Both the position numbers and the translations under genes were made by a program. From assembly GCA_964361595.1 (NCBI GenBank), contig CAYIAX010000005.1, positions 1 through 53,902 of the forward strand: a stretch of 53,902 bases of DNA, given 5' to 3'. Each line of letters opens with the position of its first letter. Position 1 is the first letter of the stretch. The DNA comes from an uncultured Candidatus Saccharibacteria bacterium. GTDB taxonomy: Bacteria; Patescibacteriota; Minisyncoccia; UBA6257; 2-01-FULL-56-20. This document shows positions 2,220 to 14,938 of the stretch, in pieces. The notes beneath the pieces were generated by a model. That model saw only the letters and a program-made list of their open reading frames with translations. It ran no database searches and was not told the origin of the DNA.

Positions 2220-3491
2220 ATGAATCGGTTTTTGCAAATATTCCGAATTAAGGACCTGCGCAACAAGGTCCTGATCGTCGCCGGGTTGCTGGTGGCTTTC
2301 CGGCTTTTGGCGGCGCTGCCGATCCCGGAAGTAAATCCCGAGCGCCTGCAGGCATTTTTCAATTCGAACCAGCTATTCGGATTCTTGAACCTCCTCTCCG
2401 GCGGCGGCTTGGAAAATCTCTCCGTGGCGATGCTGGGCGTAGGACCCTACATCACGGCTACGATCATCATGCAGCTCCTCACGATCATCTTCCCGAAATT
2501 CAAGGAATTGTATTATGAGCAGGGCGCGCGCGGGCAGGCTAAGTTCAACCAATACTCGCGGCTTTTGACAGTGCCCTTGGCCGTCCTGCAGTCTTACGGC
2601 TTCCTGATGCTTTTGGTTTCGCAAAAAGTTATTGACCGCCCCGACACGCTGGGCTTGATTACGAACGTACTTGCCATCACCACAGGCTCCATGATCGCAC
2701 TGTGGCTGGGCGAACTGATTAGCGAGCAGAAAATCGGGAACGGCATCTCCTTAATCATCTTGGCCGGTATCGTCGTGGGCCTGCCGAGCGGCATCCGCAG
2801 TATCGCCGCCACCTATAGTCCCAGCCTCTGGCCGACCTACCTCGGTTTTTTGGCCGCGATTGTGCTGATCATTGCCGGCATCGTTTATTTGAATGAAGGC
2901 GACCGGAAAATTCCCATTGCCTATGCGCGCCGGGTGCGCGGCACAAAGCTCTACGGCGGCGCCGCCAGTTACTTGCCGCTTAAGGTGAACCAAGCCGGCA
3001 TGATTCCTTTGATTTTCGCGATCTCGGTTTTGCTGTTCCCGCAATTCCTGGCCCAGATTATTTCGATCGTATCCGTGAACGCAGGGTTAAAACTGAACGC
3101 CTTGGTTACTTCTTTTCTGGCAAACCAGCTTATTTATGGCATTGTCTATTTCTTCCTGGTTTTTATTTTCACGTTTTTTTACACGGCGATTACCTTCAAT
3201 CCCGAAGAGCTTTCAAAGAATTTGCAGCGGAGCGGGGGATTTGTGACCGGCGTGCGTCCCGGCGAAGCCACCCAGCATTTCTTTTCGAATATCGTGAATA
3301 AAATCACCTTTTTCGGCGCGCTCTTCTTGGGGCTCATTGCTATCCTGCCTTTGATCATCCAGCGCATTACCGGTCTTGCCGTGCTTCAGGTGAGCGGCAC
3401 GGCGCTTTTAATCGTCGTCTCCGTCGTACTGGAGACGATGCGGCAGCTTAACTCGCAGCTTACGGTTAGGGAGTATGAGGGAATCGAGTAG
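2220..3491 (+). CDS. secY: Preprotein translocase subunit SecY
   Basis: LGVGPYITATII, GNGISLII, GVRPGEAT, GTALLIVV; multiple TM segments. Confidence 0.98.
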   Translation: MNRFLQIFRIKDLRNKVLIVAGLLVAFRLLAALPIPEVNPERLQAFFNSNQLFGFLNLLSGGGLENLSVAMLGVGPYITATIIMQLLTIIFPKFKELYYEQGARGQAKFNQYSRLLTVPLAVLQSYGFLMLLVSQKVIDRPDTLGLITNVLAITTGSMIALWLGELISEQKIGNGISLIILAGIVVGLPSGIRSIAATYSPSLWPTYLGFLAAIVLIIAGIVYLNEGDRKIPIAYARRVRGTKLYGGAASYLPLKVNQAGMIPLIFAISVLLFPQFLAQIISIVSVNAGLKLNALVTSFLANQLIYGIVYFFLVFIFTFFYTAITFNPEELSKNLQRSGGFVTGVRPGEATQHFFSNIVNKITFFGALFLGLIAILPLIIQRITGLAVLQVSGTALLIVVSVVLETMRQLNSQLTVREYEGIE

Positions 3492-13722: not shown

Positions 13723-14316
13723 ATGGCCAACAGAAAGCAACTTGCCGAAAAAATTTTGCGGGAGCTTTATGTCGATAAATCTATGCAAGAAATGGCTGAT
13801 TTGCTGCATTGCTCTCTGCATAAAATTGCTTATTGGATGGGCAAGTACAATATCCCGATACGCTCCCGTAGCGAAACGATGTATAAAAAGCACAATCCCG
13901 GTGGCGATCCTTTTGTTTTCGTTGCGCCAAAAAATCTTGAAGAAGCCAAGTTGTTCGGTCTTGGCTTGGGGTTATATTGGGGCGAAGGGACAAAAGCGAA
14001 CCTGAATTCCATCCGGCTGGGGAACACCGATCCGAAATTGATTAAAAAATTCAGCGAGTTTCTAGTTAAATTTTTCGGTATCGACAAAAACGATTTGCGG
14101 TTCGGGTTGCAAATCTTCAGCGATCTGGACGCAAATGCAGCTCTGGACTTTTGGCTTGCGGCGCTTAAAATAAGGAAAGCCCAAGTAGGCAAGGTGATCG
14201 TGACCAAGTCGGGTTCTTTAGGAACCTACCGCAAGAAAAGCCCTTATGGCGTTATGACGGTCATGTACCACAATGTAAAATTGCGCAAACTGCTTGGGGC
14301 AATGCTGCCGATGTAG
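13723..14316 (+). CDS. HTH + LAGLIDADG-like putative homing endonuclease; stop codon lies inside the tRNA-Thr(GGT) 5' end
   Basis: N-terminal HTH-like segment (SMQEMADLLHCS..IAYWMGKYNIPIR); LGLGLYWGEG helix followed by IRLGNTDPKLIKKF. Confidence 0.6.
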   Translation: MANRKQLAEKILRELYVDKSMQEMADLLHCSLHKIAYWMGKYNIPIRSRSETMYKKHNPGGDPFVFVAPKNLEEAKLFGLGLGLYWGEGTKANLNSIRLGNTDPKLIKKFSEFLVKFFGIDKNDLRFGLQIFSDLDANAALDFWLAALKIRKAQVGKVIVTKSGSLGTYRKKSPYGVMTVMYHNVKLRKLLGAMLPM

Positions 14317-14342
14317 CTCAGCTGGTAGAGCAACTCCATGGT

Positions 14343-14547
14343 AGAAAAACCTGCCTGTCCGGAAGGAAACTTTCGGATATAACCCGAATGACGGTTAAAC
14401 TCCCGCAGGGGACAAGACCGTTCCGCCCTCGGATAAAACTAAGGCGGACGAACGACTGACAAGGGGAGCTAAGTCTTAAGATATGCTCAAGATACAGTCT
14501 AATCCTCGTATAATTCGCCAGCTGGCGAAGAAATCGAGGTGTAAATG
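14343..14547 (+). ncRNA. Group I intron in tRNA-Thr(GGT) at position 36/37 (205 nt)
   Basis: 5' exon ends in U and intron ends in G; possible P1 GGU|AG:CUGCC with U.G; P7-like GACTG/CAGTC within ACGACTGAC and AAGATACAGTCT. Confidence 0.85.
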
Positions 14548-14569
14548 AAGGAGTAGGTCGCCGGTTCAA

Positions 14570-14706
14570 ATCCGGCCTGAGGCTCACAAAATTTTATGGC
14601 CGGATTTGAACGGGAAAGTGGGTCGGCGAAACGGTGGTTTCGCCGTGATGGAAGCATTGAAACCGAGCGGTTTCAATGCGCAGTCGCTTGCGACGAGCAG
14701 TGAAAT
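14570..14706 (+). other. Second, unclassified 137-nt structured insertion in the tRNA-Thr T-arm
   Basis: Bounded by direct repeat ATCCGGCC (14570, 14707); proximal 3' acceptor strand CTGAGGC mismatches, distal CATCGGC is perfect. Confidence 0.75.
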
Positions 14707-14938
14707 ATCCGGCCATCGGCTCAAAAAAATTTAAATAAGAAAAAGAGTGATAGACCTCACGACAGGTGGATTTCCCGCTACGTTTGGGCGGAGCTGCCCC
14801 GCTGATAGATTAGCGGCGTTTGCGGACGCCGCTTTTATTTTCTCAAAATGAGAAAATATCCTGAGCCTATCGAAGGATTCCCATGCCCTCGGATGCACCC
14901 TTCACAAATTCCGGCTTTTGGGTTAAAGTAGTCCCCGT

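What the first reader, a model, noticed from the sequence alone, without database searches (positions are those of the whole stretch)
14564..14721. Unclassified T-arm insertion in tRNA-Thr(GGT) carrying an antisense guide to the joined tRNA
Seen: after the group I intron the tRNA continues GTTCAAATCCGGC-CTGAGGC, which mismatches the 5' acceptor strand GCCGATG at 3 of 7 pairs. The perfect end ATCCGGC-CATCGGC-T lies 137 nt further on (14707-14721). Inside the insert, ATGGCCGGATTTGAAC (14596-14611) is the exact 16-nt reverse complement of the joined sequence GTTCAAATCCGGCCAT, so it can pair with either flank. Three hairpins follow (14624-14645, 14654-14679, 14683-14694). Established: integrative elements normally restore the tRNA with the proximal copy, the opposite of what is seen; no group I core or group II GUGYG start is apparent. 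Inference: a possible new small tRNA intron or ribozyme with an internal guide, or a tRNA-targeting mini element.
Basis: partly seen in the sequence, partly recalled or inferred. Interest (0 to 1): 0.87.

Follow-up and report, generated by a model that had tools for sequence, protein, structure and literature searches.

The report
Tiny mobile element behind tRNA-Thr
The 137-base stretch after this tRNA is probably not an intron but one copy of a widespread, apparently undescribed family of tiny structured elements in ultra-small bacteria that settle at the ends of tRNA and other genes and carry both a mirror-image and a direct copy of that gene end.

Summary
The proximal acceptor strand pairs at 4 of 7 positions, the distal end (14707-14721) at 7 of 7, and the 16-nt antisense stretch (14596-14611) is far beyond chance.

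The intron reading is poorly supported:
- An independent contig (run X2) carries the same locus with only three differences, 14578-14580 TGA>ATC. These restore a perfect proximal acceptor stem.
- The insert belongs to a large family. A covariance model of its core hits 60 of 150 other genomes of the order and 12 of 150 across the phylum (Patescibacteria), with up to 16 copies per genome.
- In 113 copies the layout is constant: gene end X, often a terminator-like hairpin, an inverted copy of X (the "guide"), a conserved core with two covarying hairpins, then a direct copy of X.
- 71 of 113 copies follow an intact tRNA. None needs the distal copy.
- Other copies sit at tmRNA ends and at the ends of ten protein genes, in either orientation relative to the gene.

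No protein is linked in cis, and there is no Rfam or literature match.

Best reading: a new kind of small non-autonomous mobile element that enters gene ends by microhomology and copies host sequence. The mechanism is inferred, not shown.

The parts
14307..14342 (+). tRNA-Thr(GGT) 5' exon (acceptor 5' strand GCCGATG 14307-14313; anticodon 14340-14342)
   Evidence: Read. ARAGORN calls tRNA-Thr(ggt) after in-silico removal of 14343-14547. 97-100% identical to the 5' halves of intron-less tRNA-Thr(GGT) genes of relatives.
14343..14547 (+). 205-nt intervening sequence in the anticodon loop (group-I-like; not part of the element)
   Evidence: Shared at 66-74% identity with 8 of 60 relatives and absent from the intron-less genes of others. 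No Rfam Intron_gpI hit at E<=10. The group I assignment rests on my recalled resemblance of 14489-14500 to the J8/7-P7 consensus.
14548..14584 (+). tRNA 3' exon with the proximal 3' end: T arm 14560-14576, acceptor 3' strand 14577-14583, discriminator 14584. Variant positions 14578-14580 (TGA here, ATC in the X2 contig).
14585..14595 (+). Spacer: the loop of the fold-back hairpin between the tRNA end and the inverted copy. In most relatives this place holds a terminator-like hairpin.
   Evidence: Family comparison (58 of 71 copies have an inner hairpin here; this copy has none).
14596..14611 (+). 'Guide': inverted copy of the host T-loop, T-stem 3' strand and CAT of the acceptor
   Evidence: Exact 16-nt complement, chance expectation 0.03. 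In the family the guide holds the exact complement of the host T-loop in 51 of 70 copies. It pairs with the proximal T arm in 70 of 71 minimum-free-energy folds.
14612..14623 (+). Conserved purine-rich junction GGGAAAG(T)GGGT
   Evidence: Invariant or nearly invariant columns in A1 and A2.
14624..14645 (+). Hairpin 1 (9 bp, 4-nt loop)
   Evidence: 99.6% of cells paired. Compensatory changes occur at 3 pairs, and this copy itself carries the G-C to C-G swap.
14646..14654 (+). Conserved junction TGATGGAAG (family consensus GTGGCGGAAG)
14655..14678 (+). Hairpin 2 (about 10 bp, 4-nt loop)
   Evidence: 98.4% of cells paired, 4 of 8 pairs with changes on both sides.
14683..14694 (+). Hairpin 3 (GTCGC-TT-GCGAC), the variable arm of the family
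   Evidence: In relatives its length and sequence vary, the minimal form being GCGAAGC.
14695..14706 (+). Element 3' end GAGCAGTGAAAT: a T-loop-like stretch that is not the host's T-loop
   Evidence: Among 70 tRNA-linked copies the distal stretch is of the GTGARN type in 29, a GTTCR variant in 23, other in 15, and equal to the host T-loop in only 3. Mismatch to the host is 150 of 483 here against 97 of 1447 in the rest of the repeat.
14707..14733 (+). Distal direct copy of the gene end: ATCCGGCC-ATCGGC-T (14707-14721) plus about 12 nt of flank that still resembles 14585-14596
   Evidence: 27-nt repeat; 7 of 7 acceptor pairs.

Best explanation
The stretch 14585-14706, with its flanking repeat 14707-14733, is one copy of a small (about 110-190 nt), non-coding, structured, non-autonomous mobile element family of Patescibacteria. 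It lies just behind the tRNA, not inside it.

In the ancestral allele, still present in the sampled population, the tRNA ends at the proximal copy. The 'guide' is the inverted copy of the host gene end that every insertion carries. The perfect distal end is the direct copy made at insertion.

The general layout is L - X - (hairpin) - rc(X) - core - T-loop-like end - X' - Y, where X is the last 12-71 nt of a gene.

The TGA at 14578-14580 is a derived three-base change in the proximal copy. The guide still records the ancestral CAT. In cells that carry TGA, the only tRNA-Thr(GGT) gene is probably crippled, unless recombination between the repeats or some RNA step restores it.

How it moves (inferred, about 0.35): a copy-in mechanism without a dedicated cis-encoded enzyme.
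1. The element's 3' terminal stretch (T-loop-like, or whatever it last sat next to) anneals by about 7-12 nt of microhomology to a new site and primes copying of the host sequence to the right. This makes X'.
2. The strand ending behind the gene folds back, often at the terminator hairpin, and copies the gene end backwards up to the entry point. This makes rc(X).
3. Only insertions within about 70 nt of a gene's end survive, because only then does the proximal copy remain a whole gene.

The strongly conserved four-way-junction core is presumably what a host enzyme, or the element's own RNA activity, recognises.

Shown: family membership, layout, covariation, target range, and the allele. Inferred: mobility mechanism, direction of copying, and whether RNA or DNA is the intermediate.
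For: Family and spread:
- BLAST finds the core next to other tRNAs in relatives.
- Model R1 hits 61 of 151 genomes of the order, G000 included, with up to 16 hits per genome. It hits 13 of 151 in a phylum sample and gives 6 hits in the own genome.
- An exact 34-nt pattern occurs in more than 104 records named Parcubacteria, Patescibacteria or Paceibacteria.

Layout in 113 non-redundant copies:
- 71 follow an ARAGORN tRNA whose 3' end lies in the direct repeat.
- The T-loop/T-stem pairs with the guide in 70 of 71 folds. 58 of 71 have an inner hairpin, and 51 of 71 have a run of 4 or more T.
- Repeat length has median 22 nt (range 12-71). It ends within -3 to +9 nt of the tRNA end in 51 of 71 copies.

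The guide is host-templated and the distal T-loop is not:
- 51 of 70 against 3 of 70.
- The guide matches its own proximal copy (score >=10) in 71 of 113 copies, its own distal copy in 23 of 113, and other copies' distal in 22 of 1130.

The core is under structural constraint: 99.1% of cells pair. There are 218 double-change cells against 71.5+-13 in shuffles (0 of 500 shuffles as high), and slid controls give 28-63% paired.

Spread inside genomes: cores are 0.893 identical within a genome at different targets (56 pairs) and 0.801 between genomes (4991 pairs).

Targets other than tRNA:
- tmRNA 3' ends.
- EF-G x2, LepA, L11 x2, RNase H and DnaB at 5' ends on the opposite strand.
- S9, FtsZ and UvrB at 3' ends on the same strand.
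- The gene body is always to the left of the element.
- Microhomology is visible at these sites (read by eye): the shared IAHID-coding stretch in EF-G and LepA, GATTCCCAC in RNase H, GCAGTG in S9.

Not an obligatory intron: 70 copies are callable with either end, 1 with the proximal end only, 0 with the distal end only.

Allele: the X2 contig has ATC at 14578-14580 and is otherwise identical over 311 nt. ARAGORN accepts that proximal end.

No cis protein: the best-shared neighbour family occurs in 7 of 113 loci and is synteny or a target gene.
Against: - No filled-versus-empty pair of otherwise identical sites was found, so the exact inserted unit and any mobility are inferred from layout, copy number and patchy distribution only.
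- No RNA data exist for this organism, so RNA-level removal cannot be excluded.
- The window's own allele is not a functional-looking tRNA with the proximal end. In 70 of 71 relatives the distal copy is also still good enough to complete a tRNA. That could mean selection on the distal copy rather than youth.
- The extreme conservation of unpaired core nucleotides is not explained by a passive template-switch model.
- G.T against A.C counts (9 against 5) do not tell which strand is the structured one.
- The copy-in model needs two or three template switches, and no enzyme is identified.
- Reverse transcriptase is only loosely associated: both present in 37 genomes, element only in 24, RT only in 38, neither in 52.
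- The 113 copies are biased toward high-scoring or pattern-matching ones.
Confidence: 0.7

Rival explanations
1. One reading: the 137 nt are a small self-splicing or otherwise processed intron in the T arm. The 5' antisense stretch would act as an internal guide holding both exon ends, and the mature tRNA would use the distal 3' end.
For: - As assembled, only the distal end gives a tRNA.
- The guide pairs with the joined sequence and sits 5' of a conserved, covarying core, with the topology of a group I internal guide.
- It is the only tRNA-Thr(GGT) gene.
- Distal copies stay intact in 70 of 71 relatives.
Against: - The X2 contig has an intact proximal end.
- 70 of 71 tRNA-linked relatives have an intact proximal end, usually followed by a terminator-like hairpin before the element. 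0 of 113 copies needs the distal end.
- The distal T-loop part is not the host's in 67 of 70 copies.
- Elements sit at 5' ends of protein genes on the opposite strand.
- There is no Rfam intron or ribozyme hit at E<=10.
- The core, about 95 nt, is far below known group I sizes (recalled).
Confidence: 0.08
2. A host-serving structured RNA, not selfish DNA. Behind tRNAs the pairing of guide and distal copy forms a closing stem that would reproduce the tRNA's acceptor and T stems (a minihelix mimic). The RNA would then be cut out by tRNA-processing enzymes and have a function of its own, or the module would shape 3' ends and termination of the host transcript.
For: - Strong conservation of unpaired purine-rich junctions together with covarying stems.
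- The hairpin 1 loop is mostly GGGA or GGAA, which is GNRA-like on the tRNA-sense strand.
- Guides often extend through the whole acceptor strand.
- The module folds as a closed four-way junction.
Against: - Patchy occurrence: 60 of 150 genomes in the order and 12 of 150 in the phylum.
- 1 to 16 copies per genome at changing tRNAs, and tandem arrays at one site.
- Copies at protein-gene ends have no tRNA mimicry and lie antisense to the host gene.
- The guide matches the proximal copy better than the distal one, 71 against 23 of 113. This weakens the closing-stem idea.
Confidence: 0.12
3. Remnant of an integrase-type island or prophage that integrated into the tRNA T-loop (attL/attR) and was later almost wholly deleted.
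For: - There is a direct repeat of the tRNA 3' end, with tRNA and tmRNA as targets and the crossover region in the T-loop. These are the classical signs of such elements (recalled).
Against: - No integrase or other ORF is shared next to the copies.
- The same conserved about-95-nt core occurs in about 290 hits.
- There is an inverted host copy, and the repeat length varies from 12 to 71 nt.
- Protein-gene targets occur.
- No similar DNA is found in IMG/VR or INPHARED.
Confidence: 0.04
4. Assembly artefact: the duplicated tRNA end, the mismatch, or both were created by mis-assembly of similar tRNA genes in the metagenome.
For: - The three mismatching bases differ in an independent contig.
- Many short contigs of other organisms' tRNAs align here.
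Against: - The whole element, with both repeats, is present in contigs of two runs: X1 over 14581-14850 with 0 differences, and X2 over 14540-14850 with 3.
- The same architecture is seen in more than 100 other assemblies.
- A 3-base bubble flanked by identical sequence implies reads with both versions (inference).
Confidence: 0.04

Closest known systems
Integrase-type genomic islands and prophages that integrate into tRNA/tmRNA genes (recalled textbook knowledge; the listing shows such papers)
   Same: Targets are tRNA and tmRNA 3' halves with the junction in the T-loop. The gene end is duplicated, so the proximal copy keeps the gene whole.
   Different: The element is 110-190 nt with no integrase. 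It carries an additional inverted copy of the gene end, has a conserved structured core, and has variable repeat length. It also uses protein-gene ends, and reaches up to 16 copies per 0.5-1.3-Mb genome.
MITEs, REP/REPIN and Rickettsia palindromic elements (small non-autonomous bacterial repeats; recalled. The review listings were seen as titles and abstracts only.)
   Same: Small, non-coding, multi-copy, hairpin-forming, patchy in distribution, and found in reduced genomes.
   Different: MITEs have their own conserved terminal inverted repeats and a short fixed target duplication. Here the inverted arms are host sequence that differs at every site, the duplication is 12-71 nt, and no related transposase was found (Y1 transposase not found in G000 or in the 7 sampled genomes of its family).
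Group I intron internal guide sequence (P1/P10)
   Same: A 5' antisense stretch next to a structured core can pair with the sequences on both sides of the junction.
   Different: There is no Rfam match and the core is too small. The host gene is complete without removal in 70 of 71 tRNA cases. The element also occurs antisense to protein genes.
Neurospora mitochondrial retroplasmids (Mauriceville/Varkud) that integrate at tRNA genes through hybrid cDNAs made by template switching onto tRNAs; R2 elements that carry flanking rRNA sequence on their transcript (both recalled, not read here)
   Same: The mobile unit acquires host tRNA or flank sequence by polymerase template switching and then uses that homology to enter the gene, leaving a duplicated gene part.
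   Different: Those are kilobase elements that encode their own reverse transcriptase. Here none is encoded, distal copies show no added CCA (7 of 61 against 11 of 61 proximal), and association with reverse transcriptase is loose.
Bacterial class C group II introns (recalled)
   Same: They insert just behind intrinsic terminator hairpins. 58 of 71 tRNA-linked copies here also sit right behind a hairpin.
   Different: Group II introns are 600 nt or longer, have six domains and usually encode a reverse transcriptase. They leave no host-derived direct or inverted repeats.

Membership tests
Group I intron (for the 137-nt insert) | Match to the conserved P3-P8 catalytic core (Rfam RF00028 or related) | tested here: not met
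   cmscan of 14200-14900 at E<=10 lists no intron or ribozyme family. The gathering-threshold scan of the window finds only 4 tRNAs.
Group I intron (for the 137-nt insert) | Removal is needed to make the functional exon product | tested here: not met
   0 of 113 family copies needs the distal end and 70 work with either end. The X2 allele of this very locus has an intact proximal end. Only the window's TGA allele would need removal.
Archaeal-type (bulge-helix-bulge) tRNA intron | Bulge-helix-bulge motif at both junctions and a splicing endonuclease in the genome | not tested
   Not searched. The host has bacterial genes around the locus (L33).
Integrase-mediated integrative element at a tRNA gene | Tyrosine or serine recombinase gene inside the element | tested here: not met
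   The element is about 137 nt with no conserved ORF. No shared neighbour protein beyond synteny or targets (7 of 113 at most).
Integrase-mediated integrative element at a tRNA gene | Direct repeat of the tRNA 3' part, with the proximal copy restoring the gene | tested here: met
   71 of 113 copies have the repeat over an intact tRNA 3' end. The same holds for this locus in the X2 allele.
MITE | Element-specific terminal inverted repeats conserved among copies | tested here: not met
   The inverted arms are host sequence. The guide holds the host's own T-loop complement in 51 of 70 copies and differs between targets.
MITE | Short target-site duplication of fixed length | tested here: not met
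   Repeat length 12-71 nt, median 22.
IS200/IS605-derived palindrome-associated element | Y1 (HUH) transposase available in the genome | tested here: not met
   PF01797 not found in G000 or in the 7 sampled genomes of its family, 6 of which carry the element. Found in 4 of the 9 genomes with 10 or more copies.
Diversity-generating retroelement product (TR/VR pair) | Differences between the two repeats concentrated at adenines of the template copy | tested here: not met
   Outside the T-loop the mismatches are A 28 of 330, C 30 of 569, G 21 of 294 and T 18 of 254. The genome's one RT belongs to an ordinary-looking DGR elsewhere.
Retro-copy of a mature tRNA | Untemplated CCA after the discriminator in the copy | tested here: not met
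   CCA follows the discriminator in 7 of 61 distal and 11 of 61 proximal copies.
Any Rfam 15 family | Covariance-model match | tested here: not met

The most novel reading that the evidence does not exclude
The conserved four-way-junction core is an active RNA, catalytic or recruiting a common host enzyme. It builds its own targeting arm by copying the end of whatever gene it lands behind, then uses short homology to seed itself into further gene ends. That would be a protein-gene-free, self-retargeting mobile RNA/DNA element. As a corollary, its direct repeat could serve as a spare gene end that rescues a damaged proximal copy, as in the TGA allele here.
Probability: 0.2. Interest if true: 0.92.

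Novelty: categorically new. Interest (0 to 1): 0.8.

Why it matters
If the reading holds, ultra-small bacteria with 0.5-1.3-Mb genomes carry a mobile element type that fits none of the known classes. It has no transposase, integrase or reverse transcriptase of its own. Its inverted arms are made of host sequence. It has a highly conserved small structured core and survives only at gene ends.

Why that matters:
- It would add a new way for DNA to move. It would explain 'broken' or duplicated tRNA ends in Patescibacteria assemblies and so improve tRNA annotation. It would also give a marker for gene flow among these organisms.
- The core is a compact RNA or ssDNA structure, about 95 nt with strong covariation and no known family, and is worth biochemical study.
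- Because the targeting arm is copied from the host at each site, the system is naturally retargetable. That is of practical interest if the mechanism can be reconstituted.

For this locus specifically, a striking 'T-arm intron' is more simply a neighbour element plus a three-base variant.

Tried and rejected
- Rfam at gathering and at E<=10 found nothing but tRNA fragments.
- ARAGORN does not call this tRNA as it stands.
- RNA evidence: no RNA holder is listed for the stretch, so expression, splicing and RNA ends could not be examined. Only contigs were laid.
- Reverse transcriptase as the mobiliser:
  - The association is loose: both 37, element only 24, RT only 38, neither 52. All 9 genomes with 10 or more hits do have PF00078. 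These genomes are related and no phylogenetic correction was made.
  - The RT of the own genome belongs to a DGR with a 134-nt TR/VR pair, and no core-like RNA lies beside it.
  - No adenine-specific differences between the repeats and no CCA in distal copies.
- Y1 transposase is rejected.
- Cis-linked protein: none is enriched.
- Phage or viral origin: 0 pattern matches in IMG/VR and no blastn match in INPHARED.
- Strand call from wobble pairs is undecided, 9 G.T against 5 A.C.
- RNAduplex energies of guide against distal region discriminated poorly from mismatched partners (-21.6 against -17.4 kcal/mol). I replaced this with alignment scores.
- A position profile of repeat identity was uninformative.
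- A first loose regex screen gave many false candidates (the script also ended with a JSON error). I replaced it with covariance-model hits.
- My guess that ORF 13723-14316 is a LAGLIDADG endonuclease was not confirmed: no Pfam hit, no PDB hit, only weak PHROG 'HNH endonuclease' hits over residues 9-56.
- Literature: six full-text searches and term look-ups in PMC11602168 and PMC11270868 (passages only) turned up no description of such an element. Subscription journals and supplements were not visible.
- Not used: the metagenome-contig scan, structure prediction, complex prediction and the protein searches.
Full report
**1. What is in the window**

- tRNA-Thr(GGT) starts at 14307 (GCCGATG...) and carries a 205-nt intervening sequence after T36 (14343-14547).
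- It resumes at 14548 and runs through a normal T arm (14560-14576) into CTGAGGC-T (14577-14584).
- That strand makes 4 of 7 Watson-Crick pairs with the 5' strand. CATCGGC at 14714-14720 makes 7 of 7.
- ATGGCCGGATTTGAAC (14596-14611) is the exact complement of the joined T-loop, T-stem and CAT. Allowing two mismatches, the window holds only this site and its partner at 14564-14579, against 0.03 expected by chance.
- ARAGORN and Rfam miss the gene.
- After in-silico removal of the intervening sequence, ARAGORN accepts the gene only with the distal end.
- The genome (778 kb, 23 contigs) has tRNA-Thr(TGT) and (CGT) but no second GGT gene.

**2. The mismatch is an allele**

No RNA run holds the stretch, so I laid contigs of four DNA runs.
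- A 401-nt contig of run X2 is colinear with 14540-14850 and differs only at 14578 T>A, 14579 G>T and 14580 A>C. That turns CTGAGGC into CATCGGC.
- With these three letters ARAGORN calls tRNA-Thr(GGT) using the proximal end.
- A 1349-nt contig of run X1 matches 14581-14850 without a difference. It has 8 unaligned letters before 14581, which fits the same variant but does not prove it.
- The guide ends in AT, the complement of the AT in CAT. So the guide itself records that the proximal copy read CAT when the guide was made. TGA is therefore the derived state (inference).

**3. The insert is a member of a large family**

- BLAST of 14300-14760 against 60 relatives matched the part 14599-14676 at many places that are not tRNA-Thr.
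- In 17 loci looked at first, each match lay 1-180 nt behind a tRNA gene of some other specificity, on the same strand. Each was followed by a second copy of that tRNA's 3' end.
- An alignment of 17 cores (A1) gave two hairpins with compensatory changes and a covariance model, R1.
- R1 finds the core in 61 of 151 genomes of the order, G000 included, with 1-16 hits each and about 290 hits in all. It finds it in 13 of 151 genomes sampled over the phylum, and gives 6 hits in the own genome.
- An exact pattern scan of named genomes returned more than 104 records. Nearly all are labelled Parcubacteria, Patescibacteria, Paceibacteria, Minisyncoccia or candidate phyla within them.
- On 94 distinct sequences, 99.1% of cells pair. 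There are 218 cells with changes on both sides against 71.5+-13 in shuffles (0 of 500 as high). Sliding the partners gives 28-63% pairing.

**4. Anatomy**

I collected 113 non-redundant model hits with at least 200 nt of flank, out of 131 hits listed and in A1. The layout is constant:

gene body L - gene end X - spacer, usually a hairpin - inverted copy of X (the guide) - core - a short T-loop-like stretch - direct copy X' - unrelated flank Y.

The core reads GGGAAAGGGGTC / hairpin 1 / GTGGCGGAAG / hairpin 2 / GGAG / variable hairpin 3 / CGAC.

- 71 of 113 copies follow an ARAGORN tRNA whose 3' end lies in the direct repeat. Seventeen amino-acid specificities are represented.
- In 70 of these 71, the minimum-free-energy fold of T-loop-to-guide is one long hairpin in which the T-loop and T-stem pair with the guide. 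58 have an inner hairpin at its tip, and 51 have a run of four or more T.
- The repeat has a median of 22 nt (range 12-71). It ends within -3 to +9 nt of the tRNA end in 51 of 71 copies and runs 10 nt or more further, through the terminator-like hairpin, in 16.

**5. The guide copies the host; the distal T-loop does not**

- The guide holds the exact complement of its host's T-loop 7-mer in 51 of 70 copies. The distal copy holds the host T-loop in only 3 of 70.
- The distal copy instead has GTGARN (29 copies), a GTTCR variant that differs from the host (23), or something else (15).
- Mismatch between the two copies is 150 of 483 in the T-loop and 97 of 1447 in the rest of the repeat.
- Guides match their own proximal copy (score >=10) in 71 of 113 cases, their own distal copy in 23 of 113, and the distal regions of other copies in 22 of 1130.

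The partner it tracks best, however, is the intact gene in front of it. The true host-derived repeat starts at the T-stem 3' strand, and the T-loop-like stretch belongs to the element. In this window it is GTGAAAT, 14700-14706.

**6. Targets other than tRNA**

Of the 42 copies that lack an intact tRNA whose 3' end lies in the direct repeat (39 with no tRNA called nearby and 3 with a tRNA nearby but the repeat elsewhere), I inspected about 20.
- Three follow tmRNA 3' ends.
- Two are tRNA-Thr(GGT) genes with the intervening sequence: this window, and G101, where the proximal end is intact.
- Ten sit at protein-gene ends, confirmed by Pfam.
  - On the strand opposite to the gene, at its 5' end: EF-G (two genomes), LepA, ribosomal protein L11 (two genomes), RNase H and DnaB.
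  - On the same strand, at the 3' end: S9 (own genome, contig C4, two to three tandem modules), FtsZ and UvrB.
- The repeats there are 21-71 nt. The guide pairs with the first nucleotides of X and up to 6 nt to its left (L130). The gene body always lies to the left.
- In UvrB the element interrupts the last about 19 codons.
- By eye the entry points share short similarity with the element's 3' end or with other targets. Examples are the IAHID-coding stretch common to EF-G and LepA, GATTCCCAC in RNase H (like a T-loop/T-stem), and GCAGTG in S9 (like GAGCAGTGA). I did not test these microhomologies statistically.

**7. Is it an intron?**

Across the 113 copies, ARAGORN finds a tRNA spanning the junction as follows:
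- with either end in 70;
- with the proximal end only in 1;
- with the distal end only in 0;
- with neither in 42 (non-tRNA targets, tmRNA, intron-bearing genes).

Most tRNA-linked copies have a terminator-like hairpin between the tRNA and the element. Copies antisense to protein genes cannot be introns of those genes. Rfam finds no ribozyme.

The intron reading therefore rests on the TGA allele alone. I give it 0.08. It cannot be excluded without RNA data.

**8. Who moves it?**

- No ORF family is shared beside the copies. The best is 7 of 113 loci: a CCA-adding enzyme in conserved synteny, and EF-G as a target.
- No similar DNA is found in viral collections.
- Cores at different targets within one genome are more alike (0.893, 56 pairs) than cores of different genomes (0.801, 4991 pairs). 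This points to spread within genomes, and so to frequent retargeting.
- Y1 transposase is excluded. PF01797 was not found in G000 or in the 7 sampled genomes of its family, 6 of which carry the element.
- Reverse transcriptase (PF00078) is in 75 of 151 genomes: 37 of the 61 with the element and 38 of the 90 without.
  - All nine genomes with 10 or more hits have it. That is a lead, not a result, because the genomes are related.
  - The own genome's RT is part of a DGR.
  - The repeats show no adenine-specific differences, and distal copies carry no extra CCA.

**9. Proposed mechanism (inferred)**

The facts to explain are:
- a host-templated inverted copy that ends exactly at the entry point;
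- an element-borne T-loop-like 3' end;
- a host-templated direct copy starting right after it;
- a frequent hairpin at the tip of the inverted repeat;
- survival only near gene ends.

The simplest scheme I can find is copy-in by template switching.
1. The element's 3' end anneals by microhomology to a new site. The T-loop, present about 45 times per genome, is the commonest landing pad. This primes copying of host sequence rightwards.
2. The host strand that ends behind the gene folds back, helped by the terminator hairpin, and is extended along the gene end up to the branch point. There it is joined to the core.
3. Selection then removes every insertion in which the proximal copy is not a whole gene.

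This scheme does not explain why the unpaired core nucleotides are so conserved. I therefore expect a host factor or an RNA activity that recognises the core.

My confidence is 0.7 that this is a mobile element family of this architecture lying behind, not within, the tRNA. It is about 0.35 for the copy-in scheme.

**10. Comparison and novelty**

It works partly like tRNA-targeting islands (gene-end duplication, T-loop junction) and partly like MITEs (small, non-autonomous). The closest mechanistic parallels are retroplasmids or R2 elements that pick up host sequence by template switching (recalled, not read here). It fails the defining tests of each family (see Membership tests).

Nothing matching it is in Rfam 15 or in the papers I could search (passages of two papers).

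I rate it categorically new, with two reservations: subscription literature and supplements were not visible, and mobility is inferred.

**11. Verdict for this locus**

- The interpretation as an intron is not supported. The interpretation as a tRNA-targeting mini element is supported and generalised.
- The three-base mismatch is a derived variant of the proximal copy. It probably disables the only tRNA-Thr(GGT) gene in the cells that carry it, while an intact spare 3' end sits 137 nt downstream.

Noticed in passing
own genome G000:C4:37650-38060 (locus L083 about 1440-1860): Two to three tandem modules of the same element family lie behind ribosomal protein S9. Each carries a copy of the last about 21 nt of the CDS including the stop codon, and the guide is antisense to the S9 end. 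Further weak copies lie behind tRNA-Arg(TCG) (C1:26556-26636), tRNA-Arg(CCT) (C3:42614-42687) and tRNA-Asn (C11:3087-3147).
   Followed up: partly
window 13723-14316 (+): A 197-aa ORF whose stop codon lies inside the first 10 nt of tRNA-Thr(GGT). It has no Pfam or PDB match. There are weak PHROG 'HNH endonuclease' hits over residues 9-56 (E about 4e-4). It may be a free-standing homing-endonuclease-like gene beside the intron-bearing tRNA.
   Followed up: partly
window 14343-14547: The 205-nt intervening sequence in the anticodon loop is shared by 8 of 60 relatives (66-74% identity) and by G101, and is absent from many others. Rfam's group I model does not detect it even at E<=10, so it may be a poorly modelled group I subtype.
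   Followed up: partly
own genome G000:C2:31500-39500 (L198): A diversity-generating retroelement: a 234-aa target gene with a variable repeat (L198 2521-2654), a template repeat at 2986-3119 (85% identical), a small helical-bundle-sized ORF and a 358-aa reverse transcriptase.
   Followed up: partly
order-wide: All nine genomes with 10 or more element hits (G004, G048, G070, G079, G104, G131, G142, G144, G150) carry a PF00078 reverse transcriptase, against 75 of 151 overall. This is uncorrected for relatedness.
   Followed up: partly
L112, L147, L148: Element copies lie on short contigs binned as Syntrophaceae, Omnitrophica and Polynucleobacter (1.7-5.1 kb). These are probably mis-binned Patescibacteria contigs. 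L147 carries a DnaB target.
   Followed up: no
several loci, just after the distal copy (own C3:42450-42780; L051; L058; L042; L072): A recurring CACTTCGA-like stretch follows the distal gene-end copy, and CAC after the discriminator occurs in 11 distal copies against 1 proximal copy. The element may extend a little beyond the repeat.
   Followed up: no
L117 (UvrB): Here the element interrupts the coding region about 19 codons before the natural stop, so the protein would end in element-encoded residues. This is the one case seen where the proximal copy is not a complete gene.
   Followed up: partly
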